This document shows, piece by piece, positions 1,371 through 51,420 of a DNA stretch of 64,000 nucleotides. Origin of the DNA: a virus; IMG/VR virus record IMGVR_UViG_3300033148_008025, positions 57,455-121,454 of that record, one strand, 5' to 3'. Under the pieces are notes generated by a model that was not told the origin of the DNA, did not search any database, and saw only the letters and a program-made list of their open reading frames with translations. The stretch's first letter is position 1; every line of letters begins with the position of its first letter. A program made the translations under genes and the position numbers.

Positions 1371-2494
1371 TGGCCGCTCAACCAAAAGCTACTCGCAAGG
1401 AAACCCAGTCTGATCTAATCAACGACGTTAACGGCCTTGGCGGGGAGGAGATTGTTACATACAACCTCTTTCTCACAGATGCGTTTGGCGGCGGAGCGGG
1501 GCTATTGGATGTGCAAGGTCACGTATTCCAGAACGAAGGCTCGGGTGTTCCAGAAACAATAGATGGACACTCGAACGATGACTCCTATCGCAGGTCAAGG
1601 CGACTCCTCCACCGATCCACCTATAGCGATGTTGACTCTGCGGCAATTGCTCATATTCGCGAGAACTCCCTGGCCAGGCAGATTGATGAAAAGAAAGATC
1701 AGCCCGGTGTTATTCGGCTCATCAGGAGACTCAAGTCTGACGAGCTCAACGAAGCTGCCAAACAGCCAGGCCCAGTTGTTCCATGGGTAAACCTCATTCC
1801 GCCCAATACCAAATTTCTACTGGAAACCGTCCAGGAAAGCCGACAGGAGAAGGTCCAGATTATCGATACATTTGGTGAATGGGTTGCTTTCTTTTTTGGA
1901 AGAAGACCAGAGGTCTACAACTACTCTGGCACACTCATTAACTCAAGCAACCACGACTGGAAAAATGAGTTTCAATTCAACTACGACCACTTCCTTCGTG
2001 GCAGCCAGGCAGTAAAGCATCGAGCAACGATGATCCTCCAATATGACGATGTCATGGTTGAGGGATACATGCTCAATTCGAGTATTCAGATGTCTGGCGT
2101 AACCGACAAATCGGTTCCGTTTACATTTAGCCTGCTCGTGATCAATCGTTCGCAGATGAACCCACGACGACAAATGGGACTCCGCTTTCTTCGCAGTGGA
2201 CCTTCCATCGGAGAGGGGCAGTTCTACAACGATCTACAGGGTGCACTAGATCTGACAGAAAGGGACACAGATGACATGCAAACCTTCCTGCTGATGAGGG
2301 AGTATTTCTCAGGTAACTACATCCCAGCTGCCGGCAAGTTTATCCATCGAGCGAAAAACAACAACATAGAATCTGAAACGTCTGTCCAGCCTGGACAGAA
2401 AGGTGGAAGTAAGAATCCAAAGCCAGTTCCTGCAAGTTTTAGCGCTAAGACCTCTGGGTCAATCCTTGAGCGCGGTGTTACCCTGCTGGAATAA
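1370..2494 (+). CDS. Putative tail tube-initiator/baseplate-proximal protein
   Basis: 374 aa, GTG start overlapping the upstream TAG; beta-rich core (VYNYSGTLI...VEGYML...VPFTFSLLV) resembling tube-fold proteins; lies just before the hub gene. Confidence 0.45.
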   Translation: MAAQPKATRKETQSDLINDVNGLGGEEIVTYNLFLTDAFGGGAGLLDVQGHVFQNEGSGVPETIDGHSNDDSYRRSRRLLHRSTYSDVDSAAIAHIRENSLARQIDEKKDQPGVIRLIRRLKSDELNEAAKQPGPVVPWVNLIPPNTKFLLETVQESRQEKVQIIDTFGEWVAFFFGRRPEVYNYSGTLINSSNHDWKNEFQFNYDHFLRGSQAVKHRATMILQYDDVMVEGYMLNSSIQMSGVTDKSVPFTFSLLVINRSQMNPRRQMGLRFLRSGPSIGEGQFYNDLQGALDLTERDTDDMQTFLLMREYFSGNYIPAAGKFIHRAKNNNIESETSVQPGQKGGSKNPKPVPASFSAKTSGSILERGVTLLE

Positions 2495-2496
2495 AC

Positions 2497-5415
2497 ATGT
2501 CTCGCCAAGGAACAGGTTCTAGAGTTGAGCTCCGTATGTACATGGAGGGGATTCTTGTCGAGAACGGACTAGCAAACGTTAGCGTTAGTGGCGACATCGG
2601 AATGCCAGCATCAGCTCAGCTCGAGCTGGTTCCAACCAACACGATAAAACACATCCTTCCAGGAACATGGATTCATGTTTTTGTGACAGATCCGTGGGAG
2701 GTTAATCCAACAGGCAATCTCGATGACTTCAAGTTGCTGTTCGAAGGTGTTGTCTCGGCTAAGGGATTCACGAAAACCGACGATGGTAGAAACTTCACAG
2801 TGCAATGCATCGCACCAGAAGTATTCTGGACCGAAGCTCGTCAGTTCTGGGTAAACCTTGCGGCTGGAAGCAGTCTCGTTGACCAAATCGTAGTGCAAAC
2901 GTCGGGAGGCAGTGGTCGCTTCGGAATGATTGGGGGGAACGCCAAGTTTGGCTACATGCAAAGCAAGCTCAAAAAAATCGAGGATGGAAGCGAGGAGCGC
3001 TTCATGGACACACTCGTGTCAGTTCTCGATGATATCGGAGGAGTCAACCCGTATTACACCAACGCAAAAAACAGAATAAGACTTACCGATCGTATTGTTA
3101 GGGGGGCCGCAGGAAAGACCGAGGAGCTGTTTCAAATATCGCTCTTCACCGACTTCCTAGAAGGCCTCGCTTCTCGAACTTCCGATCAGTCAAGCTTGCT
3201 CGAAGTGATCAACTCTCTGCTTGGTGCAATTCTCCATGAATGGGTTTCTGTTCCTGCCCCGCCATACATCAAATCTCAAGTCTTTGACCGGGACACGTTC
3301 GGAAATATCAAGCGTGGTAAAAGCACCGTAAGGAAAAATACGGGAGACGGAAAAAGAAAGAAGAAGGTCGACATCTACGACTTCAAGACTGCCCAGGACG
3401 ACATTATCGCGAGCATCATATTCAAGCCTCACATCTACACGCTATCCCCACCTACGTGCAACATCCTCTACCCCAACATGTATGATCAGATGTCATACAG
3501 CCACAACCACATGAATGAAACAACGAGGCTTCAGATGCAGCCGCAGTTGTTTTCCAGTGCTTTCAGGAAGATCTCGAAACACCTGAGGATCATGCGTCCG
3601 ACCGAACTGGAAATCTTCACCGGTCTCACTCGAGACAAGAAGGCTGGGACTAGAGGGAAACGGACACCTGATGCCAAGTACGCAGACGGAGCTGGCCAAG
3701 CTCCCGTGTTTCACGACTATGACTGGGCAACAAACGAGGAGCGAATCCGTGGAATCAAATACAACTTCATAAATCTCGCTCCGGCCCCGGGCACCCTGAC
3801 GATGACAAGTCAGGGAAAACGACAACCATCCGGAACAAGAAAAGGTGGTGCACCGAAGTACTTGCAGAACGTGGCAAGCTACGAGTACTACAAGTCAAAG
3901 TTTTCGGCCAGAGGCGCAACAGTGTCCGGCCCCTTGAACATTCGCCCCGTACCAGGGTTTTCAATCCTATTACTGGATGATTCCGCATCCCAGCAGAACA
4001 TCGTTGCATATCTTAGCGGGATTACTCATTCCATTAGCGCCGACGGGATGGCAACAACCCAGTACAGCATCAGCCTTCCAAGGCTGACCGACGAGGTGGA
4101 CTACAATCGCCCTAAGTTCAAGAAAAGCGCGACAGGTGAAAACGAAATCGATTTTGACCTATTCAGAGACGAGGAAGGCAGGTACGACTTTGCGAAGCTG
4201 TTTGACGGCGTCAATGAGCCGCCGATTCCTGAGTGGTTTGACGACGACTACAAAAACCTCCTCGACCTAGACGTGAGATATCGAGAGTGGTTTGGAACCA
4301 ATGTCGGGGTAACGCAGAACCTCTTATTTGTAGATCCGGAGCAGACGGAAAAGAATGCAATCGCAAATCAGGAGGCTGCAAGAGCAGTATACCTGGAGGA
4401 GAACGGCGTTGAGCCGGAACCAGGAGAGATACCCGACTATCCAAAATCCCTAAAAGACGACATTGTTCAATCAAACAACACGATCGGATTGAATGAGGCA
4501 GTTTTGGAACTAAACGAAAGATACACAAAGGCTCGCGGCAACGGCAGGGAGAAGGAAGAAGCTGGGGTACGAACGGCGAGAGCATTCACGAAAATCGACG
4601 AAGCGTTCAGATTCATCGGAGCTTCTCCGTTCGAATTGTCGGACCAAGCGATAGGCGAAAAGAGCAAGTCCGATCAAACCACCTTTGTGAAAAACCCGGC
4701 GTCGGAGAGGGTTATCAACTACAAGACGATGAGGCTAGACAGGTTCGTCGGAGACACTTCCCCAGGGTCTGGATATTCAGGTGTCCCAGAGGGAGAGTCC
4801 AAGGAAACAAACGATTCAAGCGGGAGCGGGGTTTCCGAGCGCATGTCTGGTGCTTTTTCAAAATTCGATACGATCGTGCACACCGGCGATAAGGCACTCA
4901 AGACAAAGGAGAGGGCTGATGCTGTAAAAGCAGAGAGTGCACCTTCATCAAGTCCGCGATATGACGGACGCCCCAGAATGTACGATTTTGAATTTCGTAT
5001 ATGGCAGGACTCAATCAAGGCTGCACAGGCAGCGGGGTTCACCATCGACGGTGAGAAGATTGCCGATTCTGCTGCCGTCGCAGACCACTATGTCAATGGA
5101 AGTAGTGGGACAATACGAGGTGCGACTGCCGAAGAGAAAGCTGCTGCTCGCGAGAGCAGGGTTGCAACAAACGCACAGAGGACTGCAGAGGAAAGCGATC
5201 GCATGTCCAAGGGGCGTCATCCTGTTCGACGAGTTCGTTCTAGGTGCCCAAACATGCCCCCCGCAAACCAGGCTCCCACCGGAGCCGGACTAGAGGAAGA
5301 GCTTGTCCTCCCGCTTCCTCAGCCGCTATCGGAAAAGCAGGTTATTAACATCAGAAGGTCTATCATCGACGCTTATCGAGACGAATTGGAGAGAACTCGT
5401 GGATTCACAGGATAG
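2497..5415 (+). CDS. Baseplate hub protein (T4 gp27 / P2 gpD / Mu gp44-like) with long C-terminal extension
   Basis: 972 aa; N-terminus has hub-type pattern (VSVSGDIGMPASAQLEL...LLFEGVV...FTVQC) and later G-x-L-N-I-R-P-x-P-G...AYLSGITHSISADGMATTQYS. Confidence 0.65.
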   Translation: MSRQGTGSRVELRMYMEGILVENGLANVSVSGDIGMPASAQLELVPTNTIKHILPGTWIHVFVTDPWEVNPTGNLDDFKLLFEGVVSAKGFTKTDDGRNFTVQCIAPEVFWTEARQFWVNLAAGSSLVDQIVVQTSGGSGRFGMIGGNAKFGYMQSKLKKIEDGSEERFMDTLVSVLDDIGGVNPYYTNAKNRIRLTDRIVRGAAGKTEELFQISLFTDFLEGLASRTSDQSSLLEVINSLLGAILHEWVSVPAPPYIKSQVFDRDTFGNIKRGKSTVRKNTGDGKRKKKVDIYDFKTAQDDIIASIIFKPHIYTLSPPTCNILYPNMYDQMSYSHNHMNETTRLQMQPQLFSSAFRKISKHLRIMRPTELEIFTGLTRDKKAGTRGKRTPDAKYADGAGQAPVFHDYDWATNEERIRGIKYNFINLAPAPGTLTMTSQGKRQPSGTRKGGAPKYLQNVASYEYYKSKFSARGATVSGPLNIRPVPGFSILLLDDSASQQNIVAYLSGITHSISADGMATTQYSISLPRLTDEVDYNRPKFKKSATGENEIDFDLFRDEEGRYDFAKLFDGVNEPPIPEWFDDDYKNLLDLDVRYREWFGTNVGVTQNLLFVDPEQTEKNAIANQEAARAVYLEENGVEPEPGEIPDYPKSLKDDIVQSNNTIGLNEAVLELNERYTKARGNGREKEEAGVRTARAFTKIDEAFRFIGASPFELSDQAIGEKSKSDQTTFVKNPASERVINYKTMRLDRFVGDTSPGSGYSGVPEGESKETNDSSGSGVSERMSGAFSKFDTIVHTGDKALKTKERADAVKAESAPSSSPRYDGRPRMYDFEFRIWQDSIKAAQAAGFTIDGEKIADSAAVADHYVNGSSGTIRGATAEEKAAARESRVATNAQRTAEESDRMSKGRHPVRRVRSRCPNMPPANQAPTGAGLEEELVLPLPQPLSEKQVINIRRSIIDAYRDELERTRGFTG

Positions 5416-6232
5416 GCAGATTGGACTTGAAATAGAGGCTGAGCTGGAGGAGTGGCTTGACAAGGAAGCTGCTGCTCGAGGTATTGACCGAGAAGCTCTG
5501 CAGCAATCAGAGCTGGAGGCGTGGGAGCGTTGGAGTAAGGACCCCAACCAGCAAGACTTTGAGACGCTGTACCAGAGTCACCAGCCACTGTTCGAGACAA
5601 TAGGTGCTCGATACATGAAAAGCAGCAACCTTCCCACAGCTGCAATCAGATCTAGGATGACGCAGAACTACGTGAAGGCCCTCGAGGGATACGACCCAAC
5701 AAGAGGGGCGAAGCTATCGACGCATGTCATGAACACACTTCCGCATCACATTCCAAGATACATACAGAAGTATACAAACATTGGAAGAATTCCTGATGAC
5801 ATGGGTGGGATGATCGGACTACTCGAGGAGCGGAATGCTGCACTATCAGACCGCCTTGGACGATTGCCGACAAACGACGAGCTCGCTGATGACATGCTAA
5901 TGTCTGCGCGGGACTATTCCGATCAAAGGAAAAAACTCATAACACCAAAAAAGGTGGGGACGCTGAGAAGGTCTTTGCGGCTAGACTTTGTCGCAGAAGA
6001 GGCTGGCGGCGTTGCCCCAACGCATGGTGTCTCGAAGCTTGAGCAGCATGCAGTTTATTTGCATGGCTCATTGAATTCCGAGCAAAAACTAATTCTCGAA
6101 CATACCTACGAAGGGTTTGATAAGCCGATCATCCAGGACGTTGAACGACTGTCCAGGACGGTAAAGATGTCTCCTCAAAAGGTTCGTGCGATCAAGAAGC
6201 AAATCTGGAAAAAGATGGAACGGTACATGTAA
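5399..6232 (+). CDS. Sigma70-family RNA polymerase sigma factor (group-3/FliA-like size)
   Basis: Region 2 YDPTRGAKLSTH, region 3 RIP...LSDRLGRLPTNDELAD, region 4 HTH-like LSRTVKMSPQKVRAIKKQI. Start chosen at GTG 5399 with GGAGAG upstream; the ORF track starts at TTG 5303. Confidence 0.8.
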   Translation: MDSQDRQIGLEIEAELEEWLDKEAAARGIDREALQQSELEAWERWSKDPNQQDFETLYQSHQPLFETIGARYMKSSNLPTAAIRSRMTQNYVKALEGYDPTRGAKLSTHVMNTLPHHIPRYIQKYTNIGRIPDDMGGMIGLLEERNAALSDRLGRLPTNDELADDMLMSARDYSDQRKKLITPKKVGTLRRSLRLDFVAEEAGGVAPTHGVSKLEQHAVYLHGSLNSEQKLILEHTYEGFDKPIIQDVERLSRTVKMSPQKVRAIKKQIWKKMERYM

Positions 6233-6234
6233 CG

Positions 6235-8232
6235 ATGGCTGGCTCAGACGAAATAAAAGAAGCGATTGCCTGTCTCTCAAATGTCTATCCGCAGTATGTG
6301 TCAAAAACACTTGCAGATCTTACGGACCAAATTGAATCAGTAGTCCAGTCCTACACCGACCCTATGGCTGCGATCGATGATCTGAGCGTTGACTCTCTTG
6401 TTGAGAGCGTTGCCGAGTCGGCCAGCGCAGACACCTTTGGAAACCTTGAGGAGATTGCCACTGGACTACTTTCTCAATATGTAAAGAGAGATGCGTCTTC
6501 GTTTTCCGAATCTCTTCCGAAAGAGTTTTCGAACGTGACAAAAAAGGTTCAAGACATCAGGAACATGTCAGGCAGGGTGATTCAGACCGCATCTCAGATG
6601 TTGTCACTATTCCCAGACATGCCATACGTTGCTGCTCAGAAAATGTGTGAATCAATGATTCGCGTCATCGATATGAAGGTTTGCAACCTGCGGTGCCTGC
6701 GAAAGCATATCGTTCAGCTGACCAATTGCGTTTTAGTACTAGTGAATCACGTAGATGACTACCACGAGCAAACTCTGTACGAAATCACGCTTGCCTCAGA
6801 GGCCATCGACGAAGTGGAGACTGAGCTTGTAAAAAGCCAGAGACTGGACATCGACAACAACATCACCTTCGACTCACAAGCATTCGAGCGTGCTCGACAG
6901 GCTATGCTCAACGCCGTCTCCCACCTGACGCCAGAGCAAGATGGTGACAACATCCTCGCCGAGGCCGACCTGATGACTCCAGGCGGAATACAGACAACGC
7001 AGATCACAAAGTCCAACAGATCCCTCGTGACCATGGCGATCCCACAGCTTGTTAAGCTCATAGAAGTTGAATCCGCAGCAGTCAATTCTCAGATTTCGGT
7101 CATCAACTATCACGCCAATGCCCTCACAGCCGTGATCAACCAGTTTCGCATCGCAGGAAAAAGCAGTCGCGTTCAGACGATGCGAGCAAGGGCAATTACG
7201 GATATCAGAAACAAGGTTGCAAGGCTCGGATCGAGGATCGATGTTGCACTCACGAGAGGGTCGACCAGGACACTGGCGGAAGAAATGCTGTCATGGGCCT
7301 CCGGCGCCAAGACAATTGTAGCCGCAATGGATAGGGTGAAAACTCTTACCCTACAGGAAGGATCGATTGAGGGGATTGACAAGGCGTACGAACTCCAGGT
7401 GGCCCTAGAGAAGCTTCTCAACGGACTTATCTCAATCAGCGGAATAAGCTACCCCACTGCAGAGAACGGGATAGAGGACTCAACGGAGATCACTCACAGG
7501 GTTACAGCGCTTGCAAAAGGTGCCTTCAGGATTCTTGGAGATTTGGAAAACAACACAACAAGCGAAAACAGAATAGCCACCTTCCACTTGCTATCTCTCC
7601 AGACTGCCACGCTCCAGGTCAACACGATTGACGACTCGATCACTGTTGCGCTCGAGCAGCGAGCTCTCTGTGAGGAATTCGCCGCAATCAACCTGCAGGT
7701 TCGAGAACGATACGACGAACTGCTCGGGTCCATGCGACAGTTGGGCCTGGATAGAGCCGTAGACCTTCTCAGTGTTGGAAAGTTTGATGACTTCCTTTCG
7801 AGCGATCTCGATGACCTGTCGTACCTCGGTGTTGGCATTTCCTGTCTTACGCATGCGCTTGGAGCCGTCGACGACACGCAAACCCGCGGAGAACTGATTT
7901 CGATTAGAGATGAGATGATTTCCAGGCAAACAAACCAAGAGGTTGCTGCTGCCGACTCCGTAGATCAGGGGCGGGTCAGGATTTTAACTGATGTTAAATC
8001 CGAAGTTTCATCTATCCAAAAAAACGCAAAAGTCATCGAATCAATCCTCGCACAGCTTACGGGAACAGCCGACAAGCTCAATATCGACATTGACGTAGAT
8101 ATGGGGGGCACCCCAGCCTTCCTGGGCAACCTTGACTATCTGTCCGTTGGAGCAGGAGGCAGGCTCTCAGGCGGGCTTGAGGAGATATCAGAGTATGCTA
8201 ACGCCGGTGTCGTTAGCTGCAAGCCACTGTGA
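6235..8232 (+). CDS. Large all-alpha/coiled-coil hypothetical virion protein
   Basis: 665 aa ORF tightly coupled to its neighbours; heptad-rich; no recognised motif. Confidence 0.6.
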   Translation: MAGSDEIKEAIACLSNVYPQYVSKTLADLTDQIESVVQSYTDPMAAIDDLSVDSLVESVAESASADTFGNLEEIATGLLSQYVKRDASSFSESLPKEFSNVTKKVQDIRNMSGRVIQTASQMLSLFPDMPYVAAQKMCESMIRVIDMKVCNLRCLRKHIVQLTNCVLVLVNHVDDYHEQTLYEITLASEAIDEVETELVKSQRLDIDNNITFDSQAFERARQAMLNAVSHLTPEQDGDNILAEADLMTPGGIQTTQITKSNRSLVTMAIPQLVKLIEVESAAVNSQISVINYHANALTAVINQFRIAGKSSRVQTMRARAITDIRNKVARLGSRIDVALTRGSTRTLAEEMLSWASGAKTIVAAMDRVKTLTLQEGSIEGIDKAYELQVALEKLLNGLISISGISYPTAENGIEDSTEITHRVTALAKGAFRILGDLENNTTSENRIATFHLLSLQTATLQVNTIDDSITVALEQRALCEEFAAINLQVRERYDELLGSMRQLGLDRAVDLLSVGKFDDFLSSDLDDLSYLGVGISCLTHALGAVDDTQTRGELISIRDEMISRQTNQEVAAADSVDQGRVRILTDVKSEVSSIQKNAKVIESILAQLTGTADKLNIDIDVDMGGTPAFLGNLDYLSVGAGGRLSGGLEEISEYANAGVVSCKPL

Positions 8233-8250
8233 TAAGGTTTTCCAAGGACA

Positions 8251-8678: not shown

Positions 8679-10742
8679 ATGGCACTCCCAGTAAAAGAAT
8701 TCATCATTGAAAGGCTTCTTGAGTTTGACTCATCCTTTGACACGGGGTCCGGTGTCCCGACAACCGGGCTACTCATTGAGCCGCTTTCTGTGATTTTGCA
8801 ACCAGTTATCGATGAGCTATCTGTAGTTCAGGCGAGTTCCTCGATCCTCACAATCCTTGAGTCTTCTGATCCCGACTCTTTCCCGGAAGACATTGTTGAC
8901 GGACTGGCATCAAATGCATTTGTCGACAGAAACCCAGGGGAGATTGGCTCCGATGTCATGCGAATTCGTTTTTTTGAGCCGCAGCAATTTGAGGCGCAAC
9001 AAGGGGTACTCATCTTCCGCGGCCCAAGCGGTCAACGGTTTACAAATTCCGAATCTTTCGTAGTGACCTCATCGGAGATGAGCCTGAACAAAGACGGGAG
9101 TCTCTACTTTGCAGACATTCCGATTGTCTCCCTCGAGGAGGGGGAGGACTTCAATGTCAGTTCTGGTGCAATCACTTCCATGGAGGCCGAACCAAGTGGA
9201 GTTGCAAACGTAACAAACCTGTTTGGAATATTAGACGGAAGAGATAGGGAAACAAACACGGAATTAATCGATCGTATCAAGGTCGCAGTAACCGTTAGGG
9301 CACTTGTTACCGGGCGCGGAATCATCGTCACCCTCACCGAGAATTTCTCCACAATTGAAGAGATTACTCCCGTAGGATTTGGCGACCCTGAGATGATGAG
9401 GGACATTGTTTACAACGTTCACATCGGTGGGAATTCCGACGTCTACGTGAAAACATCGAATTTCACATCAGGGTTCAAAGATTTTTTCGGAATAGAAGTT
9501 GATACTTCTAGGCAGAAATCCGGTTACGGAACAATCTCTCTCCCGCTCGACTCCGTTGGATACTTCCTTGGGAACTCCGGAATTGACAGGACGAACATCG
9601 CGCCAACTGTAAGGGCTATCGATGGGCTTGTTGCCTACGCAGAAACCACAGACTACATACTAGACGACACATCTGGAACTATTTTCAGAGTTCCAGCCGG
9701 GTCGATTTTTCATCGTGAGGGAATATCTGGAGTTGTAACCGACACCAAGACATTGACTCAGGTCGGTGAGTTTGCAAGTGCACGGAGAGGTATGATCTTG
9801 ACTATTGATACCCCGGCAACGGTGTCGGGGAGATACACGGTCAGGGAGTCTCCAGATGCTGACACTGTCATCATCTACGGGGAGTTCTCAGTGGGATCGG
9901 AGACTGGCGTAAACTGGAGTCTTGATGACAACCTTACCGTGTCCTACGAGTACAATCCTATCTCTATCGACATAGCTGAAGCTGCAAGGTCTGATGACCG
10001 TGAAATATTCACCATTACAGATATCCCGCTTATGTATGTTGAATCCGTAGAAGTACTTGATCCGCTGTCCGGAGAGCAGACAGGCGTAACCCTGGAACCG
10101 CTGGGTGGGTTTGGTGCAGGCGGGTTTGGAGTTGGGGGATTCGGGGTTGGCAGCGGAGCGGATTTCAAGCTTGTTGTTGTAGACCCAACCCTTCGCCACT
10201 CGTCGGAGGAAAGCAACTACATCGAGTTTGACGCTAGCTATGCTGGCTATGCACTTAGGTTGAACTACTTTTATGCTTCTGCGATTCCGCCGATCCAGGC
10301 ATTCATGGATGACAGGAACAATCAGAGTCAAACAGCATCGCTACTTGCTCGCCACCACATCCCAGTGTTTGTTGATACTCAGAAGACGATCAGCTACGAC
10401 ATCTCCGCATCGTCCGAAGCTACTGCGCTGAGCACGGAAGAGATGGTCTCGCTCATCAGCGACTATATTAACGACATCGACCAGGACGGAGACCTTGAAA
10501 TCTCCGACATCATTGATGTCATGTATGACAGCGGTGCAACCCGGGTTGACCTCGGTGCCATACAGGAAATGCGCGGGGAAATTCACAACCATGATGGCTC
10601 AATTGAATACACACTTCCTGACAGCACGGGAAGTATGGTTATTCCAGATAACGACATCGAAGACCCAACTGACAAACCACTGTCCCCGCGCATTGCTAGA
10701 TTTCGTTCTAGAACAATATCCCTTCAAAGGAACGTTGTATGA
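8679..10742 (+). CDS. Baseplate wedge protein, gpJ / T4 gp6-like
   Basis: 687 aa; G-x-R-F-x-x-x-E, G-x-x-F-N-V-x-x-G-A-I-T, NVTN...GRDRETNTELIDRI, GFGDPEMMRD motifs typical of baseplate J-like proteins. Confidence 0.8.
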   Translation: MALPVKEFIIERLLEFDSSFDTGSGVPTTGLLIEPLSVILQPVIDELSVVQASSSILTILESSDPDSFPEDIVDGLASNAFVDRNPGEIGSDVMRIRFFEPQQFEAQQGVLIFRGPSGQRFTNSESFVVTSSEMSLNKDGSLYFADIPIVSLEEGEDFNVSSGAITSMEAEPSGVANVTNLFGILDGRDRETNTELIDRIKVAVTVRALVTGRGIIVTLTENFSTIEEITPVGFGDPEMMRDIVYNVHIGGNSDVYVKTSNFTSGFKDFFGIEVDTSRQKSGYGTISLPLDSVGYFLGNSGIDRTNIAPTVRAIDGLVAYAETTDYILDDTSGTIFRVPAGSIFHREGISGVVTDTKTLTQVGEFASARRGMILTIDTPATVSGRYTVRESPDADTVIIYGEFSVGSETGVNWSLDDNLTVSYEYNPISIDIAEAARSDDREIFTITDIPLMYVESVEVLDPLSGEQTGVTLEPLGGFGAGGFGVGGFGVGSGADFKLVVVDPTLRHSSEESNYIEFDASYAGYALRLNYFYASAIPPIQAFMDDRNNQSQTASLLARHHIPVFVDTQKTISYDISASSEATALSTEEMVSLISDYINDIDQDGDLEISDIIDVMYDSGATRVDLGAIQEMRGEIHNHDGSIEYTLPDSTGSMVIPDNDIEDPTDKPLSPRIARFRSRTISLQRNVV

Positions 10743-13415: not shown

Positions 13416-13445
13416 TTGACGACCTGCCATCGGTCAAACTAGAAT
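13416..13445 (+). promoter_or_regulatory. Sigma70-like promoter TTGACG-N18-TAGAAT
   Basis: Sits in a 51-nt intergenic gap; GAGGAG RBS follows at 13448-13453. Confidence 0.5.
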
Positions 13446-30094: not shown

Positions 30095-30103
30095 CCTTAT
30101 GCC
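30095..30103 (-). promoter_or_regulatory. GGCATAAGG motif (copy 1 of 3 exact)
   Basis: Exact 9-mer, intergenic, upstream of minus-strand gene 29469-30002. Confidence 0.5.
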
Positions 30104-30115: not shown

Positions 30116-33100
30116 GTGCCGACTATGGAAAGCTTCGATTACCAGGACCAGTTCAACAGGGTTAAGAAGGATGTTATTGCATCCGTGACCAAGGCTCTCG
30201 ATATCCAATCTGCTGGTGCAAACCGCAAAATGGTTGTCCATAAAGTATGGATCGATGACAACAAAAACCCAGCAGACTGGGAGTCTCAAAAGCAGGCCGT
30301 ACGAAAAGATAAGACTTGGGGAGTACCTGTCTATGCAACCGTTGATCTCATTGACCGAAAGACCGGAGCGGTTCTTTCCTCTGAGGAAAGGATCAAGGTA
30401 GCCACACTTCCGAGGCCCACGAACCTCGGGAGTTTCATCATCGACGGAAAACACTATCAGGTTCAGTCTCAGCTTCGCCGCAAACCTGGTGTCTACACCG
30501 TTCAGAAGCGAAACAAACAACTCAAGACTGAGGTGAACATCCAGAAGCGCCCATTTGATATCGATATGGATCCGGAAACTCAGATCTTCAAAATGAAGAA
30601 AGCGGGTTCCGACCAGGCGTTTGCCTTGTATCCGATTCTCTCTAGGCTTGGAATCTCAGATGTGGCAATGGCTCGAAGATGGGGCAAAGACGTTCTCGAG
30701 GCAAACAAATCAATCAAGCCGAAGAACGCCGAGGTCTCAGTAAGAAAGGCTGCGTTGTTCTTTACTGGAAGCAACTTTGATTCTGCCGAGGACGCAGCAA
30801 ATGCAATAAAGGAGTACTTTCAGGATACCGAAATAAAGCCAGAGGTGACCAAGTCAACCCTCGGAAAAGCGTATACGAAGGTTACGCCCGACCTCTTGCT
30901 AAGAGGATCAGAAGAGCTTCTTCGGGCAAACAGGGGAGAGCGCGAAGCGGATGACAGGCAAGCTCTTGAGTTCAAGAAAGTTCTCGGAATGAGCGACCTG
31001 ATGAGAGAGAGAATGCTCCAAAGCGATGGGCAACTAGCTGGTGCCATGTCCAAAGTAAGAGGCGGAATCTCCAGGAAAATCAACAACCGAAAGAAACCTG
31101 TCTCGGAAATCTCCAAACTCATAAAGACGAACGAGTTCACGCCGTTCTTCAACTCTTTTTTTAGCCAATCTTCGCTATCAAACATCACAGACCAAACTAA
31201 TCCGATCACCATGCTGAACGGAACCGCCAAGATCACCGTACTCGGGGAAGGGGGGGTAATGGATGCCACCAGAGTTCGAGGCGAAGAGAGAGCTGTACAC
31301 CCATCTCAGATGGGATTTATAGATCCGATCCATACGCCCGACTCTGGAAACATTGGACTGGTAATGAACCTTCCACTTGGAGTCACCAAGAATGGGGAGA
31401 ATCTACAAACAAAGGTGATAGATCCGATAACTAAAAAAATCAGATCGATTACCCCGAGTGAAGCAAGAAACATGGTCGTAGCTTTCCCGGATCAGTATTC
31501 AAAGAAGACTGGAAAGTTCCTGGGAGACAAAGTCAGAGCATTTGTGAATGGGCAATTTGAGAACGTGTCGCCAGACAGGGTTGATGTCGTTCTTGCTAGC
31601 CCAAAGCAAGCATTCTCAATTGCATCAAATACCATCCCGTTCCTTCCTGCGGCACAGGGCGTTAGAGCGCAGATGGCAACCAAGATGCTTGAGCAGGCAA
31701 TTCCTCTCTCGGAAAGAGAAGCTCCTTTGGTCCAGGTTGGACTTGGTAGAAGCACTATCGAGAAAAGCATAGGAGAGGGGTTCTCTGTCCAGGCGCTGGA
31801 CGACGGAATCATAGAGAAAGTCGAAGACGGCAAGATCACGATAAAGACCAAGGATGGAAAGGTGGAGCAAAAACTCTACACGAATATCCCGCTAAACAAA
31901 AAAGCGTTTCTGACGTCAACCTCGACAGTCAAAGAGGGGGATGCCGTCAAAAAGGGAGACGTTATCGCTGACTCGAATTTCACGAAAGATGGTCAGCTTG
32001 CACTTGGAACAAACCTTCGAGCAGCCTACATCCCATACAAGGGATACAACTTCGAAGATGGAATTGTAATCACTGAGAGCGCGGCAAAAAAACTTACCAG
32101 CGAGCACATGAACGAGTTTGCATCATCCATAGAAAAAGGAATGGAGGTCTCACTTAAAGACTACATGGCATGGAAGGGTGGGGGGCTCGACCTCAGCCAG
32201 CGACGAAAACTTGACAAGGATGGGGTCATCAAAATTGGCGAAACTGTTCACAAGGGCGATGCACTTTGGGTCGGAACAAGGGAGAATAAGTATGACCCAG
32301 ACTATATCGCAGCCAAGAAAATGAATCCCAACCAAGATCCTAAGAAGGCCTACAGGGAGGAGTGGACAAAGGATGGGTTAGGGGAAGTTGTCGACGTAGT
32401 CAAAAGCAACGGTAAGATCAAGGTTTACGTGAAGTCTAAGGAGGCTGCGGTCATAGGTGATAAGCTCACAAATCGTCACGGCGGAAAAGGAATTGTAACC
32501 AAAATTATCCCGGACGGAGAAGCACCTTATACAGCAGACGGAAGAGCTGTCGATATCCTGCTCAACCCTCACGGCGTCGTGAGCAGAATCAATCCTTCCC
32601 AGATCCTCGAAACAGCAGCAGCCAAAATTGCCGACCTCGAAGGCAAGCCGTATGTTGTCGAAAACTTTTCCGGCGAAAATTACACGGAGTCTGTAACGAA
32701 AGCTGTCAAGAAGGCAGGCATCTCAGATACTGAAACCCTGTATGACCCGCACACAAAGAAAGCACTCGGTGATGTTCTTGTTGGCCCCCAGTACACCCTG
32801 AAGCTTTCAAAGCAGGCAACGTCTCAGTTCTCTGCACGCTCTGAGGGGAAGTACGATGCAGATCTTGCTCCGCTCAAGGGTGGAGAAGATGGTGCAAAAG
32901 CCCTCGACATGTTGACGTTCTACTCGATGCTTTCGCATGGCGCTCGTTCAAACATTAGGGAGATGGCAACATACAAAGCAACCGAGAACAAAGAGTTCTG
33001 GCGATGGGTCGAGAGAGGGGCCTCGTCCGGAATGATTACGCCTCCGCCAGAACCAACTCTTGCATACAAGAAGTTCGAAGCCTACATGAAGGGCGCCGGT

Positions 33101-36100
33101 GTCAACATGGAACGACGTGGGTCAAAGATGGTGCTTGGGCCAATGACCGACGAGATGACAGACAAGATCAGTAATGGGAAAGTTCGAGATGCAACATTCC
33201 TTCGAGCGAAAGATCTGAAGTACGAGCGCGGCGGACTGATGGATCCAAACATATTCGGCCAAGGCGACAAGTGGGGACACATCGAACTTGCCGAATCCAT
33301 TCCAAATCCAGTCTTTGAAAAACCAATCAAAGTACTCACCGGCATAGATGACAGAACATTCAAGGCAGTGGTCAAAGGCGAAAGATTCTTAGACCCTAAA
33401 ACCAATGAGTGGAATGAAAAGAAAGGGCTTACTGGTGGCGAAGCCATCTCTCATTTACTGAAGCAGGTTGACGTAGATAAAGAAATTGCCATCTGGACAG
33501 ACAAAGCAAAAGGAGCGGCCTACAAAAAAAGGAAGGACGGGACTCGAACGGAGGACGAACTGAACACTGCCAATAAAAGGCTTCGCTATCTTCATGCCCT
33601 CAAGAAACTAAACATGTCCCCGGACAAGGCTTACATCCAAAAGAAAATTCCAGTTGTCCCAACGCAGTTTAGGAAGATCATCGAAATGGAGGGAGGCAAC
33701 CTCTCCAACGCCGGACTCAACTCTCTGTACCGAGATGTTGGTTTGATTAGCGACCAGCTCAAGTGGCAGAAAACCGTCGACTACATGCCCGAGTCCGTAA
33801 AGGCGGAGCTTAGGGAGAATCTGTACGGAAGTGTGAAGGCCGTAGCTGGACTCGGAGAGCAGGTGAGGCGAGGAGGAAGTCAGAAAGCTGACAAGCGTCC
33901 AAGGGGCATCATCGAACAACTAAAAGGAAAGAAAGCAAAAGAAGGGTTCTTTCAGCGGAAGGTTTTGCGCAGAACGCAGAACCTCGTCGGGAGAGGAACG
34001 ATCATTCCAGATCCGAAGCTCGGGGTTGACGAGGTCGGCCTCCCGAAAGAAATGTCCTGGACACTGTTCGAGAAGTTTGTAACTCGACGCCTAGTCAATA
34101 GTGGGTACAAACCGAATGATGCAATCGAGGCAGTAAACAATCGAACCCCTGCAGCACTATCTGCCCTGCAAGCGGAGATGGAAAGCAGGCCGGTAATGCT
34201 CAACAGGGCACCGTCACTCCATAAGTTCTCTATCCAATCGTTCAAACCAAGAATGGTCGATGGAAAAGCGATCAAGATCCCTCCACTCATTGTCGGAGGC
34301 TTCAACGCCGACTTCGATGGAGACGCAATGACTGTGCACGTTCCAGTACTCAGCGACTCAGTGGCCGAGGCTAAGAAGATGCTCCCATCTAGGAACCTGT
34401 ACAGTCCCGGAACTGGCGACATCATGATCAAACCCCAGAATGAAGCCGCCCTAGGGCTGTATCAGATGTCAATCGATCCAAAGCTCAAGGGGAAGATCTT
34501 AGAAGAACTTCCCGAGAAGACCAGAGCCAAATTCGAAAACCGTCCACTCGATAAGAAGGGGCTTGGAGATCTGATGAAGAGCCTCGCAATCGAAAGTCCG
34601 GATGGGCATGGTGCGGTTGTCGACAAGCTCAAGCTTATGGGTGACGACCACACATACAAGACTGGATTCACAGTCAGCCTGAAAGACTTGTCCCCGGTTC
34701 TTCCTGAGAGGAATGCAATATTCGCAAGAACGAAAAAAGACCTAGCGGGAATTGATACTAAAACCAGGAAAGGAAGAGAGGAAGCATCTGCTTTAATTTC
34801 CGCCGCAGACAAAGAACTGGAAGCCGTCTTAGCCAGTCGCCTCGATGAGCAAGGAAACAGTTTTCGACTAATGGTGAGATCTGGCGCTCGAGGGAACATG
34901 CAGCAGCTCAAGCAGATCCTATCTGCTCCGTTTGCCGTTCCAGACCATAGGGGGCAAGTGCTGGCAGAACCGATTACAACATCCTTTGCCGAAGGGCTGC
35001 CATTCTCGGATTACTGGAACACGCTATATGGGGCGAGGGCTGTTGCAACGGATAAGCAACTCCAAACCCAATTGCCGGGGGCATTCAACAAAGACATCAT
35101 GGCCTCTTCCGTTACCAACGTGATCTCCGGCGCGGATTGTGGGGTTAATCGAGGAGTGAAGATTTCACTCAAGAGTAAAATCGATGACGCAGAAGATCGT
35201 TACCTGGCCAAGGACATAAGTGTTGGCGGAACAGTTGTTGCCAGAGCGGGAACGCTTATGAGTACTGGACTGCTCAACACGCTGCGAGACCGAAAAGTCG
35301 ACAACGTGGAAGTTCGCTCTCCACTCACCTGTAATAAGCCGAAGGGTACATGCGCAAAATGCTTTGGACTCAACGAGAGTGGAAATCTATCTCAGATTGG
35401 GGACAACATTGGAGCTACCGCCGGCCAGGCTCTGTCTGAACCATTGACCCAGATGACACTGAGAACCTTCCACCAGGGAGGTGTTGCTGGAGGGCGAGGT
35501 GTTGTGAGCGGATACGACAAAATCGACAAGCTCTTTAAGATGCCAAAGATCAAAAGAGGAAAAGCCACCCTTGCCAAAAGTGATGGAGTCATTGAAAGCG
35601 TAAAAAATGCACCTGGTCGAACAGGGAAAAACATCAAAATCAGTGGCTATAGAAAAACTCATTTTGTTGAAAACGATCTGTGGAACAGCAACAAAGCTCG
35701 CGTTGGGAAGAATGTTTTCAAGGGGGACATCCTCTCCGACGGACTTGTTCAGCCACAGGAACTCGTCGAATTAAAAGGAATGCAGAGTGCACAAGAATAC
35801 CTTGTCGATGAGATTCAAGATGCCTACGGATCTCAGGGAGTGAAGCTGAAAAGAAAGACTGTAGAAACAGTAATCAGGGCAGTTGCGAACACCACAAAGA
35901 TCCACGACGCAGGCGACAGCAACTTCCTCATCGGCGATGTTGCACCATGGACGGTTGTGGAGGATTACAACCGGAGATCTCTAGGTAAAAAAGGACTCGA
36001 TGAGATTATCGGACTTGCCCTCAAAGAGGACGTTCCTGGCATCAGAAAGAATACGATTATCTCCGAGAAAATTCGAAGCACGCTGGAGCGCATGGGCAAA

Positions 36101-36346
36101 TCGGAAGTTGAGGTGGGACCGCGTCCAATCGGGCACGAGCCGTTCCTGAAGGGGATTGAGCAGATTCCAATGTTGCGCAAAGACTGGATGAGCCAGATGG
36201 GATACCGGAACATAGAAAAGGCGATCACTGAGGGTGCTGCTACTCTTTCAGAGTCCGACATCCACGGGTATGCGCCGGTCCCAGCATTTGCCTACGGAGC
36301 CGAATTTGGGCTACCTGGCGGAGGAAAAGAGGAGGGAAGTTACTAA
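30116..36346 (+). CDS. rpoBC: Single-chain fused beta-beta' DNA-directed RNA polymerase (cellular two-barrel type)
   Basis: 2076 aa. beta motifs SQLRRKPGV, PIHTPDSGNIGL, KGYNFEDGIV, GDKLTNRHGGKG, NPHGVVSRIN; beta' motifs GHIEL, LNRAPSLH, catalytic NADFDGD (34304-34324), SGARG, trigger loop TQMTLRTFHQGG. No stop between the halves. Confidence 0.97.
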   Translation: MPTMESFDYQDQFNRVKKDVIASVTKALDIQSAGANRKMVVHKVWIDDNKNPADWESQKQAVRKDKTWGVPVYATVDLIDRKTGAVLSSEERIKVATLPRPTNLGSFIIDGKHYQVQSQLRRKPGVYTVQKRNKQLKTEVNIQKRPFDIDMDPETQIFKMKKAGSDQAFALYPILSRLGISDVAMARRWGKDVLEANKSIKPKNAEVSVRKAALFFTGSNFDSAEDAANAIKEYFQDTEIKPEVTKSTLGKAYTKVTPDLLLRGSEELLRANRGEREADDRQALEFKKVLGMSDLMRERMLQSDGQLAGAMSKVRGGISRKINNRKKPVSEISKLIKTNEFTPFFNSFFSQSSLSNITDQTNPITMLNGTAKITVLGEGGVMDATRVRGEERAVHPSQMGFIDPIHTPDSGNIGLVMNLPLGVTKNGENLQTKVIDPITKKIRSITPSEARNMVVAFPDQYSKKTGKFLGDKVRAFVNGQFENVSPDRVDVVLASPKQAFSIASNTIPFLPAAQGVRAQMATKMLEQAIPLSEREAPLVQVGLGRSTIEKSIGEGFSVQALDDGIIEKVEDGKITIKTKDGKVEQKLYTNIPLNKKAFLTSTSTVKEGDAVKKGDVIADSNFTKDGQLALGTNLRAAYIPYKGYNFEDGIVITESAAKKLTSEHMNEFASSIEKGMEVSLKDYMAWKGGGLDLSQRRKLDKDGVIKIGETVHKGDALWVGTRENKYDPDYIAAKKMNPNQDPKKAYREEWTKDGLGEVVDVVKSNGKIKVYVKSKEAAVIGDKLTNRHGGKGIVTKIIPDGEAPYTADGRAVDILLNPHGVVSRINPSQILETAAAKIADLEGKPYVVENFSGENYTESVTKAVKKAGISDTETLYDPHTKKALGDVLVGPQYTLKLSKQATSQFSARSEGKYDADLAPLKGGEDGAKALDMLTFYSMLSHGARSNIREMATYKATENKEFWRWVERGASSGMITPPPEPTLAYKKFEAYMKGAGVNMERRGSKMVLGPMTDEMTDKISNGKVRDATFLRAKDLKYERGGLMDPNIFGQGDKWGHIELAESIPNPVFEKPIKVLTGIDDRTFKAVVKGERFLDPKTNEWNEKKGLTGGEAISHLLKQVDVDKEIAIWTDKAKGAAYKKRKDGTRTEDELNTANKRLRYLHALKKLNMSPDKAYIQKKIPVVPTQFRKIIEMEGGNLSNAGLNSLYRDVGLISDQLKWQKTVDYMPESVKAELRENLYGSVKAVAGLGEQVRRGGSQKADKRPRGIIEQLKGKKAKEGFFQRKVLRRTQNLVGRGTIIPDPKLGVDEVGLPKEMSWTLFEKFVTRRLVNSGYKPNDAIEAVNNRTPAALSALQAEMESRPVMLNRAPSLHKFSIQSFKPRMVDGKAIKIPPLIVGGFNADFDGDAMTVHVPVLSDSVAEAKKMLPSRNLYSPGTGDIMIKPQNEAALGLYQMSIDPKLKGKILEELPEKTRAKFENRPLDKKGLGDLMKSLAIESPDGHGAVVDKLKLMGDDHTYKTGFTVSLKDLSPVLPERNAIFARTKKDLAGIDTKTRKGREEASALISAADKELEAVLASRLDEQGNSFRLMVRSGARGNMQQLKQILSAPFAVPDHRGQVLAEPITTSFAEGLPFSDYWNTLYGARAVATDKQLQTQLPGAFNKDIMASSVTNVISGADCGVNRGVKISLKSKIDDAEDRYLAKDISVGGTVVARAGTLMSTGLLNTLRDRKVDNVEVRSPLTCNKPKGTCAKCFGLNESGNLSQIGDNIGATAGQALSEPLTQMTLRTFHQGGVAGGRGVVSGYDKIDKLFKMPKIKRGKATLAKSDGVIESVKNAPGRTGKNIKISGYRKTHFVENDLWNSNKARVGKNVFKGDILSDGLVQPQELVELKGMQSAQEYLVDEIQDAYGSQGVKLKRKTVETVIRAVANTTKIHDAGDSNFLIGDVAPWTVVEDYNRRSLGKKGLDEIIGLALKEDVPGIRKNTIISEKIRSTLERMGKSEVEVGPRPIGHEPFLKGIEQIPMLRKDWMSQMGYRNIEKAITEGAATLSESDIHGYAPVPAFAYGAEFGLPGGGKEEGSY

Positions 36347-38152: not shown

Positions 38153-38161
38153 CCTTATGCC
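38153..38161 (-). promoter_or_regulatory. GGCATAAGG motif (copy 2 of 3 exact)
   Basis: Exact 9-mer about 52 nt upstream of the ssb start. Confidence 0.5.
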
Positions 38162-51411: not shown

Positions 51412-51420
51412 CCTTATGCC
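51412..51420 (-). promoter_or_regulatory. GGCATAAGG motif (copy 3 of 3 exact), preceded by GGCGTAA
   Basis: Overlaps the stop of the upstream minus-strand gene; about 72 nt upstream of ATG 51339. Confidence 0.45.

What the first reader, a model, noticed from the sequence alone, without database searches (positions are those of the whole stretch)
5399..6232. Sigma70-family factor embedded in the baseplate operon
Regions 2, 3 and 4 are recognisable, but the usual DLIQEG core-binding segment is replaced by AIRSRMTQNY. The gene is translationally coupled between the hub gene and a structural gene, so it should be expressed with virion genes, which is an odd time for a sigma factor. Altered core-binding residues would fit a sigma adapted to the phage's own fused RNAP rather than the host enzyme.
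Basis: partly seen in the sequence, partly recalled or inferred. Interest (0 to 1): 0.7.

Follow-up and report, generated by a model that had tools for sequence, protein, structure and literature searches.

The report
Phage sigma factor inside tail operon
An uncultivated ~180 kb phage encodes a real but unusual sigma factor among its baseplate genes, most likely as the promoter-recognition partner of the phage's own fused RNA polymerase and probably carried in the virion, a pairing that current reviews say phages lack.

Summary
ORF 5399-6232 (277 aa, GTG start, SD GGAG) is a full sigma70-family protein with sigma2, sigma3 and sigma4. Support comes from NCBIfam RpoD-type hits (7.5e-11), PDB SigA (6.7e-7) and an AF2 model matching whole sigmaA/sigmaS chains. 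The DLIQEG core-binding motif is replaced, in this protein and across the family.

The gene overlaps the hub-like gene by 17 nt and ends 2 nt before the next gene. This position is conserved in five related viral contigs, and loosely in Salmonella phage Arash and Vibrio phage D69.

All of these phages also encode the phage beta-beta' RNAP, fused here into one 2076-aa ORF. Its sigma-docking sites (beta' clamp helices, beta flap tip) have diverged from the bacterial consensus.

Published proteomics found the Arash orthologue (gp10), beta and beta' in purified virions. YerA41 has a late, particle-associated sigma in its structural module. This resolves the "odd timing": the sigma is probably virion cargo for early transcription.

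Two conserved promoter-like classes were found, but neither can be assigned to this sigma by computation. Core specificity and packaging remain inferred.

This is a new member of an annotated but uncharacterised kind. The scan had noted this stretch before only in an overlapping window of the same genome.

The parts
5399..6232 (+). Sigma70-family gene, 277 aa, GTG start
   Evidence: ORF and sequence; NCBIfam, PDB and PHROG hits; AF2 model plus Foldseek; 76 metagenomic homologues at 38-68% identity
5388..5391 (+). Shine-Dalgarno GGAG, 7 nt before GTG 5399, inside the end of the upstream gene
   Evidence: Read from the sequence
5399..5548 (+). N-terminal helical extension (residues 1-50). The first ~30 residues are clade-specific and absent from Arash gp10, D69 gp11 and many 230-260 aa family members
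   Evidence: Alignments A1 and A2; profile hits start at position ~30-38; not a GFxDELxKxA tag
5549..5788 (+). Sigma2 domain (regions 2.1-2.4), approximate bounds
   Evidence: HMMER alignment to SigA chains; helices H51-126 in the model
5639..5671 (+). Region 2.2 variant A-A-I-R-S-R-M-T-Q-N-Y replacing D-L-I-Q-E-G-N-x-G-L
   Evidence: Printed alignment; family consensus
5795..5983 (+). Sigma3 domain, approximate bounds
   Evidence: Pfam Sigma70_r3 at residues 147-174; alignment; model
5984..6034 (+). Region 3.2-like linker; residues 199-210 have pLDDT below 50
6035..6229 (+). Sigma4 domain with HTH. Recognition helix S-P-Q-K-V-R-A-I-K-K-Q-I, with Q260, K261 and R263 invariant in the family
2497..5415 (+). 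Upstream 972-aa gene, candidate baseplate hub; overlaps the sigma start by 17 nt
   Evidence: Atlas leads to GpP/Gp44/Phage_GPD/VgrG families; weak match to Arash gp8 structural cell-wall hydrolase; no Pfam, PHROG or PDB sequence hit
6235..8232 (+). Downstream 665-aa all-alpha protein of unknown function, conserved in the clade
8679..10742 (+). Baseplate J / wedge protein
   Evidence: Pfam PF04865 1.9e-6; PHROG 6 1.2e-12
30116..36346 (+). Fused beta-beta' RNA polymerase, 2076-aa ORF. The likely true start is ATG 30125 behind SD AGGTG
   Evidence: Pfam Rpb2 then Rpb1 domains; single ORF of 2060-2126 aa in five relatives; start region
33698..33895 (+). Beta' clamp-helix segment (fused residues ~1195-1260), the docking site for sigma region 2.2. 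The family motif is L-Y-R-D-V-G-L-I-x-x-E-L-K-W-Q, against bacterial L-Y-R-R-V-I-N-R-N-N-R-L-K-R-L
32288..32338 (+). Beta flap-tip position (fused residues ~725-741). The bacterial helix E-E-R-L-L-R-A-I-F-G-E-K-A is not conserved
13416..13445 (+). Class B promoter-like site TTGACG-N18-TAGAAT. Both hexamers are conserved and the spacer is free in six phages
30095..30103 (-). Class A motif GGCATAAGG in the divergent gap beside the RNAP gene; same position in G001, G002, G003 and G005 (one mismatch in G004)
38153..38161 (-). Class A motif GGCATAAGG
51412..51420 (-). Class A motif GGCATAAGG, 25-33 nt upstream of minus-strand gene 50917-51387

Best explanation
The gene encodes the promoter-specificity (sigma) subunit of the phage's own bacterial-type RNA polymerase, the 2076-aa fused beta-beta' protein encoded 24 kb downstream.

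It is transcribed and translated as an internal gene of the tail/baseplate operon because it is needed late. It is probably packaged into the virion together with the polymerase and delivered with the DNA. A ready-made holoenzyme could then start transcription of the non-structural (leftward) genes without host RNA polymerase.

Shown:
- Sigma2-sigma3-sigma4 architecture.
- Loss of the canonical region 2.2 motif.
- Operon position and its conservation.
- Strict co-occurrence with the phage RNAP.
- Divergence of both sigma-docking sites on the phage core.

Taken from papers on relatives: sigma, beta and beta' are present in purified Arash particles, and YerA41 has a late, particle-associated sigma.

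Inferred: binding to the phage core rather than the host core, packaging in this particular phage, and the promoter it reads. The candidate promoter is the conserved extended -10-like element (TTTCC)nGGCATAAG(G), which sits upstream of genes on the strand opposite the structural genes.
For: (1) It is a true sigma fold and sequence.

(2) Its position between the hub-like gene and the baseplate genes, with an overlapping start, is kept in five IMG/VR relatives at 45-59% identity. The same order holds in Arash and Vibrio phage D69 at about 28% identity.

(3) The phage RNAP is present in all five relatives as a single ORF, and in Arash and D69/D148/D181. The sigma family profile hits Arash gp10 at 8.6e-32 and D69 at 2.5e-26.

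(4) Core docking sites have changed. In E. coli numbering (from memory), beta' R275, R278 and R281 become I/V, E/Q and W, and E295 and A302 become L and S. The flap-tip helix is not conserved. On the sigma side, D403, Q406 and E407 become A, K/R and S/G.

(5) Arash virion LC-MS found gp10 with 100% coverage and 467 spectra. Beta gp206 was the most abundant protein and beta' gp216 was present. The second, more canonical Arash sigma gp196 is absent from the paper's virion table.

(6) In YerA41 a late-expressed sigma in the structural module and the RNAP subunits are particle-associated.

(7) Only one sigma70-family gene is detectable in G000-G004, and no RpoA in G000.

(8) GGCATAAG occurs 11 times on the minus strand and 0 times on the plus strand of the 121 kb record. 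In five relatives it occurs 26 times against 0, always on the anti-structural strand, usually 18-30 nt before a start codon.

(9) GC content is uniform across the gene, so it is not a recent insertion.
Against: - There is no direct evidence of sigma-core binding or of packaging for this phage.
- The Arash proteome lists 116 of about 270 proteins after a sucrose gradient, including ribonucleotide reductases. The authors themselves allow carry-over of abundant proteins.
- Neither sigma nor RNAP carries the phage's GFxDELxKxA candidate cargo tag.
- The sigma keeps a well-conserved sigma4 helix, with R588 retained and E585 as Q (E. coli numbering, from memory). It sits in an operon headed by a sigma70-consensus-like -35/-10 promoter. 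It could therefore read those late promoters instead of, or as well as, GGCATAAG.
- The records are fragments (67% and 71% complete), so a second sigma could have been missed.
- The clamp-helix and region 2.2 contact assignments come from memory of E. coli work, not from a structure examined here.
Confidence: 0.55

Rival explanations
1. The sigma serves the phage RNAP inside the cell only. It would be a middle or late factor that reads the sigma70-like TTGACG-N18-TAGAAT promoters of the structural operons, including its own, in a positive loop. It would not be a functional virion component, and its signal in particles would be carry-over.
For: The -35/-10 promoters are conserved in front of structural genes, with invariant hexamers in six phages. 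The sigma4 recognition helix is conserved. The cargo tag is absent. The Arash particle proteome is very inclusive.
Against: A sigma needed to start the operon that encodes it has a bootstrap problem unless some protein is delivered or another polymerase fires first. In Arash the virion table lists gp10 but not the other sigma gp196, which argues for selectivity. Only two class B sites exist in 121 kb.
Confidence: 0.2
2. The sigma redirects the host core RNA polymerase to phage promoters, like SPO1 gp28/gp34, T4 gp55 or the sigma factors of RNAP-less jumbo phages. The phage RNAP would work without it.
For: Most characterised phage sigma factors act on host core (reviews PMC7824862 and PMC13282480). 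The protein keeps much of region 2.2-2.4, including K414, R423, G424, K426, S428, T429 and R441 equivalents (E. coli numbering from memory).
Against: The most conserved core-binding motif is lost family-wide. The gene is always accompanied by a phage RNAP whose sigma-docking sites are themselves altered. Its position in the middle of a late operon is wrong for a factor that must precede its targets. There is also the virion association in relatives.
Confidence: 0.15
3. The protein is an exapted sigma fold with another role, for example a DNA-binding virion or baseplate-lumen protein, an anti-host decoy that titrates host core or anti-sigma factors, or a DNA-ejection accessory. It would not be an initiation factor.
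For: The gene order next to hub and baseplate genes has been stable over large evolutionary distances. The tryptophan dyad and the extended -10 residues are lost: W433, W434, H455 and E458 become N, T, D and G (E. coli numbering from memory).
Against: All three sigma domains plus the 3.2 linker are preserved under purifying selection across at least 169 clusters at 50% identity. This includes residues matching the sigma70 DNA-contact positions R441 and R588.
Confidence: 0.05

Closest known systems
Salmonella phage Arash gp10 (annotated 'RNA polymerase sigma factor RpoS'; PMC10585845) and Vibrio phage D69 VPHD69_0011
   Same: Homologous over sigma2-sigma3 (family profile 8.6e-32 and 2.5e-26) and alignable through sigma4. 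Same place in the tail module, after the large hub/cell-wall-hydrolase protein and before baseplate J. Same LP..A.K replacement of the DLxQxG motif. The genomes also encode the phage beta/beta'. Arash gp10 was detected in virions.
   Different: Only about 22-24% identity in the multiple alignment (28-30% in local tblastn matches). Arash and D69 lack the first ~30-45 residues and have a small extra gene in front. Arash and D69 have a second, more canonical sigma (gp196 in Arash), which is not found in this clade. The Arash RNAP is split into beta plus beta'-N (gp206) and beta'-C (gp216), whereas here it is one ORF. The GGCATAAG motif is not enriched in Arash or D69.
Yersinia phage YerA41 late sigma factor (g019 in PMC7354516; probably YerA41_195c)
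   Same: A sigma-like gene inside the structural module, expressed late and particle-associated, in a phage with its own beta and beta' genes. The authors proposed co-injection.
   Different: No detectable membership of this sigma family and only a marginal RpoD_Cterm match at 0.009. It is shorter (171 aa). The YerA41 RNAP genes are separate, in beta'-beta order, and expressed early.
Bacterial group 1/2 sigma70 factors (RpoD/SigA, RpoS)
   Same: Same domain order sigma2-sigma3-3.2 linker-sigma4. These are the best sequence and fold matches. Equivalents of K414, R423-G424, K426, S428-T429, R441, R451-I-P and R588 are retained (E. coli numbering from memory).
   Different: About 15-20% identity in the Foldseek alignments, with scores far below family cut-offs (38 against 354 bits). 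There is no region 1.1 or non-conserved region. Region 2.2 DLIQEG is lost, and W433, W434, Q437, T440, H455 and E458 are not conserved. The partner core is probably a phage fused beta-beta' without alpha or omega.
Phage sigma factors that reprogram host RNAP (SPO1 gp28 and gp33/34, T4 gp55, sigma factors of RNAP-less 'group 2' jumbo phages)
   Same: A phage-encoded sigma70-family or sigma-like specificity factor that directs transcription to phage promoters.
   Different: Those phages have no multisubunit RNAP of their own, and reviews state that sigma and phage RNAP are mutually exclusive. Here both are always present together, and the sigma gene sits inside a late structural operon.
Virion RNA polymerases (N4 vRNAP, phiKZ/AR9 vRNAP) and the non-sigma70 specificity subunits phiKZ gp68 and AR9 gp226
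   Same: The proposed logic is the same: a polymerase made late, packaged, injected, and used on early promoters that differ from the host consensus. A separate promoter-specificity subunit works with a phage multisubunit core.
   Different: N4 vRNAP is a single-subunit T7-like enzyme. The phiKZ and AR9 cores are split into 4-5 polypeptides, and their specificity subunits have no sequence similarity to sigma70. Here the core is one fused, near-canonical beta-beta' and the factor is a recognisable sigma70-family member.

Membership tests
Sigma70 family | Sigma2 domain (regions 2.1-2.4) recognisable by sequence and fold | tested here: met
   NCBIfam and PDB alignments cover residues ~55-130. Foldseek gives probability 1.00 to full sigmaA/sigmaS chains.
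Sigma70 family | Region 2.2 core-binding consensus D-L-[IV]-Q-E-G | tested here: not met
   A-A-I-R-S-R aligns opposite D-L-I-Q-E-G. The family consensus is LPKAAVKS.
Sigma70 family | Region 2.3/2.4 melting and -10 recognition residues (E. coli Y430, W433, W434, Q437, T440, R441; numbering from memory) | tested here: inconclusive
   These positions read H, N, T, H, P, R. Position 430 keeps H or Y, and R441 is invariant in the family. The Trp dyad is lost, and alternative sigma factors also vary at these positions.
Sigma70 family | Sigma3 domain | tested here: met
   Pfam Sigma70_r3 gives 4.9e-4, below the cut-off, but several homologues pass it. Alignment and model agree.
Sigma70 family | Sigma4 helix-turn-helix (regions 4.1-4.2) | tested here: met
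   Alignments run to residue 273. Helices H213-276 are modelled at pLDDT 86-93. Q260, K261 and R263 are invariant.
Sigma70 family | Binds an RNAP core and confers promoter-specific initiation | not testable with these tools
   No multimer modelling or biochemistry was available.
Group 1 primary sigma (RpoD) | Region 1.1 and a score above the RpoD equivalog cut-offs | tested here: not met
   277 aa, with no region 1.1. TIGR02393 scores 38.1 bits against a 354-bit cut-off.
Arash gp10-type phage sigma (tail-module sigma of phages with bacterial-type RNAP) | Homology to gp10 | tested here: met
   The family profile hits gp10 at 8.6e-32; alignment A2.
Arash gp10-type phage sigma (tail-module sigma of phages with bacterial-type RNAP) | Gene lies between the large hub-like protein and the baseplate J gene | tested here: met
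Arash gp10-type phage sigma (tail-module sigma of phages with bacterial-type RNAP) | Genome also encodes the phage beta/beta' polymerase | tested here: met
Arash gp10-type phage sigma (tail-module sigma of phages with bacterial-type RNAP) | Protein present in purified virions | not testable with these tools
   Known only for Arash from LC-MS in PMC10585845. This phage is uncultivated.
Virion-packaged RNAP systems (N4, phiKZ, AR9 type logic) | Polymerase components encoded among late or structural genes | tested here: met
   Sigma lies in the tail operon. The RNAP lies on the structural strand, upstream of the terminase gene.
Virion-packaged RNAP systems (N4, phiKZ, AR9 type logic) | A distinct, non-host promoter class in front of early genes | tested here: inconclusive
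   GGCATAAG is strand-exclusive and conserved. Neither the timing of those genes nor the enzyme that reads the motif is known.
Host-RNAP-redirecting phage sigma factors (SPO1 gp28, T4 gp55 type) | Phage relies on host core and has no multisubunit RNAP of its own | tested here: not met
   A fused beta-beta' RNAP is present here and in all relatives.

The most novel reading that the evidence does not exclude
This clade may carry a self-contained, two-polypeptide bacterial-type holoenzyme: one fused beta-beta' chain plus one sigma70-family chain, with no alpha or omega. It would travel in the virion and make the phage independent of host transcription from the first minute. The single sigma would have co-evolved with the phage clamp helices and flap, and would read an extended -10-like promoter, nGGCATAAG, that host sigma70 should not use. 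That would be the simplest known sigma-dependent multisubunit RNAP, and a counter-example to the rule that RNAP-encoding phages lack sigma factors.
Probability: 0.3. Interest if true: 0.8.

Novelty: new member of a known kind. Interest (0 to 1): 0.6.

Why it matters
Reviews of phage transcription (PMC7824862, 2021; PMC13282480, 2026) describe two exclusive strategies. Phages with their own multisubunit RNAP lack sigma, alpha and omega homologues. Phages with sigma factors lack an RNAP and hijack the host core.

This clade, together with Arash and the D69-type Vibrio phages, has both a near-canonical core and a recognisable sigma70-family factor. The family is large in metagenomes: 169 clusters at 50% identity with E <= 1e-30.

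If the pair works as proposed, it would be a minimal two-chain holoenzyme. Such a system would allow study of how sigma-core recognition can be rewired, how a core assembles without alpha, and how a 230 kDa polymerase with its sigma is packaged and injected.

The conserved promoter-like motifs and a cultured relative (Arash) make the question directly testable.

Tried and rejected
1. Cargo-tag idea. The sigma N-terminus E-E-W-L-D-K-E-A-A matches a loose regex for the GFxDELxKxA tag. A PSSM built from ten true tags scores it at -14 bits, rank 1210 of 37147, while true tags score 23 bits or more. Rejected. The RNAP has no tag either.

2. The N-terminal extension as a fused version of the small gene in front of Arash gp10 or D69 gp11: no similarity.

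3. Fused sigma forms as a physical link to the hub. P0123 (808 aa) and P0124 (633 aa) carry unrelated N-terminal parts, P-loop-like in P0123, with no similarity to the 972-aa protein.

4. CTAAAAAA, enriched in intergenic DNA, is largely the tail of minus-strand terminators, not a promoter.

5. Identity of the 665-aa downstream protein. There is no Pfam, PHROG, PDB or atlas signal, and the AF2 model (pLDDT 71, all-alpha) has no Foldseek match.

6. The generic sigma70 promoter and terminator scan of 1-20000 is at or below shuffle level. There is no site between the hub gene and sigma, and only the 13416-13445 site stands out.

7. A second sigma in this clade was not found, but the records are fragments.

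8. No RpoA (PF01000) in the 121 kb record.

9. Context of more distant family members: the contigs were too short to be informative.

10. Literature searches found no biochemical study of a phage beta-beta' plus sigma70-family holoenzyme.

Full report
**What is there**

The window is the right half of a 121,454-bp IMG/VR virus record estimated at 67% complete, which implies a genome of about 180 kb.

ORF 5399-6232 on the plus strand encodes 277 aa. GTG 5399 is preceded by GGAG at 5388-5391. It is the start used by homologues, which begin M/V-D-S-Q. The upstream 972-aa gene ends at TAG 5413-5415, so the two genes overlap by 17 nt. The sigma stop is TAA 6230-6232, and ATG 6235 of the next gene follows after 2 nt.

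From the left edge of the window to 13406 every plus-strand gene abuts or overlaps the next. A generic scan finds no promoter- or terminator-like site around the gene. GC content is uniform across it.

**Is it a sigma factor?**

Yes.
- Pfam alone is weak: Sigma70_r3 at 20.6 bits, below the 25.3-bit cut-off.
- NCBIfam RpoD-type models match residues ~90-274 at 7.5e-11 and 1.2e-9, and 28 sigma models in all match at E <= 10.
- PHROG 351 'RNA polymerase sigma factor' matches at 6e-9.
- Solved SigA and RpoS chains align over residues 57-273 at 6.7e-7 and weaker.
- An AlphaFold2 model built on 41 homologues (pLDDT 81) has sigma2, sigma3, a disordered 3.2-like linker and sigma4. Its best Foldseek hits in the PDB are full-length sigmaA/sigmaS chains, with 85 hits at E <= 0.001 in all.

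Opposite D-L-I-Q-E-G-N-L-G-L the phage protein has A-A-I-R-S-R-M-T-Q-N-Y. The whole family has LPKAAVKS..LRNY at that place.

Using E. coli numbering (from memory, consistent with the alignment offsets):
- Kept: K414, R423-G424, K426, S428-T429, R441, R451-I-P and R588.
- Conservatively changed: Y430 is H or Y, and E585 is Q.
- Not conserved: W433, W434, Q437, T440, H455 and E458.

**Family and context**

There are 76 clusters at 38-68% identity in metagenomes, several on 150-178 kb contigs. A profile search of 1.8 billion representatives gives 169 clusters at E <= 1e-30.

In five IMG/VR relatives the gene order is identical from the 304-aa gene through hub-like gene, sigma, 665-aa gene, 141-aa gene, baseplate J and beyond. 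In Salmonella phage Arash and Vibrio phage D69 the same order is recognisable at 22-30% identity: hub-like structural protein, small gene, sigma, small genes, baseplate J-like gene. The family profile hits Arash gp10 at 8.6e-32 and D69 gp11 at 2.5e-26.

'Baseplate operon' is therefore fair, with limits:
- Baseplate J is confirmed.
- The hub identity of the 972-aa protein rests on atlas leads to gpD/gp44/VgrG families.
- The 665-aa protein is an all-alpha protein with no recognisable fold.

**The partner polymerase**

ORF 30116-36346 encodes 2076 aa, with Rpb2 domains followed by Rpb1 domains. The true start is probably ATG 30125 behind AGGTG.

All five relatives have it as one ORF of 2060-2126 aa. 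In Arash, beta plus the N-terminal half of beta' form one protein and the beta' C-terminal half another. The D69 group also has this polymerase. Sigma and this polymerase therefore co-occur in every genome or fragment examined. No RpoA-like gene is found in the 121 kb record.

The two surfaces that dock sigma on bacterial cores differ in the phage enzyme.
- The clamp-helix motif L-Y-R-R-V-I-N-R-N-N-R-L-K-R-L is L-Y-R-D-V-G-L-I-x-x-E-L-K-W-Q family-wide. That is, R275, R278 and R281 become I/V, E/Q and W, and E295 and A302 become L and S.
- The flap-tip helix is not conserved.

On the sigma side, Q406 and E407 become K/R and S/G. This looks like mutual adaptation. However, the contact assignments are recalled from E. 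coli genetics and were not checked on a structure here.

**Why a sigma among virion genes?**

Two papers on relatives supply an answer.

In Arash, LC-MS of sucrose-gradient particles found gp10 with 100% coverage, 24 peptides and 467 spectra. Beta gp206 was the most abundant protein and beta' gp216 was present (PMC10585845). Arash has a second, more RpoD-like sigma, gp196, which does not appear anywhere in that paper's text or table.

In YerA41, a different lineage with its own beta and beta' genes, a sigma gene in the structural scaffold is expressed late and is particle-associated, as are the RNAP subunits. The authors proposed injection (PMC7354516; structural-cluster context).

One caveat applies. 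The Arash list contains 116 proteins, including metabolic enzymes, and the authors allow carry-over.

**Promoter leads**

- It occurs 11 times on the minus strand and never on the plus strand of the 121 kb record. About 1.9 per strand would be expected by chance.
- In the five relatives it occurs 26 times on the strand opposite the structural genes and never on the other.
- One copy is always in the divergent gap beside the RNAP gene.
- Thirty-one aligned sites show (TTTCC)nGGCATAAG(G/A), usually 18-30 nt before a start codon, with no fixed -35.

The motif resembles an extended -10 element (G at -14, CATAAG), but the outer positions differ from the consensus. It is not enriched in Arash or D69.

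A second class, TTGACG-N18-TAGAAT, sits at 13416-13445. Both hexamers are invariant or nearly so, and the spacer is free, in six phages. A sister site, TTGACC-N18-TAAACT, heads the operon that contains sigma. It lies 4.1 kb left of the window.

The clade shows only one sigma70-family gene. Which class it reads cannot be decided by computation.

**Verdict**

The evidence fits a sigma dedicated to the phage core. The timing paradox dissolves if the protein is virion cargo, but both steps are inferred.

The closest known things are Arash gp10 (a homologue with the same position) and the YerA41 late sigma (an analogue). Both were only annotated and detected by proteomics. Reviews still state that RNAP-encoding phages lack sigma, and I found no biochemical study of such a holoenzyme.

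I file it as a new member of a known but uncharacterised kind, of moderate to high interest. It is widespread, contradicts a textbook dichotomy, and is testable.

Noticed in passing
window 30095-30103, 38153-38161, 51412-51420 (minus strand); eight more copies in the same record to the left of the window: GGCATAAG(G) occurs 11 times on the minus strand and 0 times on the plus strand of the 121 kb record. In five related contigs it occurs 26 times against 0, always opposite the structural strand. It is often preceded by TTTCC and lies 18-30 nt before a start codon. It is a candidate extended -10-like promoter for the non-structural genes.
   Followed up: yes
window 13416-13445 (+); sister site about 4.1 kb left of the window start (record 53294-53323): A sigma70-consensus-like promoter, TTGACG-N18-TAGAAT. 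The hexamers are invariant and the spacer is variable across six phages. It ends only ~13 nt before the ATG. The sister site heads the 12-gene tail operon that contains sigma.
   Followed up: yes
window 10739-11041, 50439-50849 (-), 53144-53497, 55659-56477, 57735-58418, 60196-60957, and four genes left of the window: The GFxDELxKxA peptide is a sharply defined family: 10-11 proteins score 23 bits or more on a PSSM, and the next best hit scores 7 bits. It is mostly at residues 4-8 of otherwise unrelated proteins. Sigma and RNAP do not carry it.
   Followed up: partly
L020 3657-4694 (Arash gp196); D69 record 133202-133843: Arash and Vibrio phage D69 each encode a second, more RpoD-like sigma (4e-19 and 4e-14 to RpoD_Cterm) outside the tail module. 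Arash gp196 is absent from the published virion table. No counterpart was found in this clade's fragments.
   Followed up: partly
L020 13094-17671 and 22442-24262 (Arash); Vibrio phage D181 record 144188-152047: The same polymerase is split differently in relatives. Arash has beta plus beta'-N in one ORF and beta'-C in another, 5 kb away, with small genes between them. In D181 and D148 the polymerase matches in three pieces spanning a region that includes a homing endonuclease gene.
   Followed up: no
window 30113-30127: The RNAP ORF is listed from GTG 30116, but the conserved AGGTG followed by ATG 30125 is the more likely start. The only conserved element in the upstream gap is the reverse-oriented GGCATAAG motif, about 10 nt before the SD.
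   Followed up: partly
window 6235-8232: A 665-aa all-alpha protein conserved across the clade (37-74% identity), with six invariant cysteines: C13, C138, C154, C479, C537 and C662. It has no family or fold match and no counterpart in Arash or D69.
   Followed up: partly
proteins P0123 (808 aa), P0124 (633 aa), P0146 (487 aa): Some members of the sigma family are fused to unrelated N-terminal regions. One of these has a P-loop kinase/AAA-like motif.
   Followed up: partly
L012 1322-1912 (Cobetia phage Carin-5); L010 559-1194 (YerA41_136): In the Carin-5 and YerA41 lineage a ~200-aa gene sits directly upstream of the beta' gene. It is annotated 'RNA pol sigma factor' in Carin-5. It does not align with this sigma family.
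   Followed up: no
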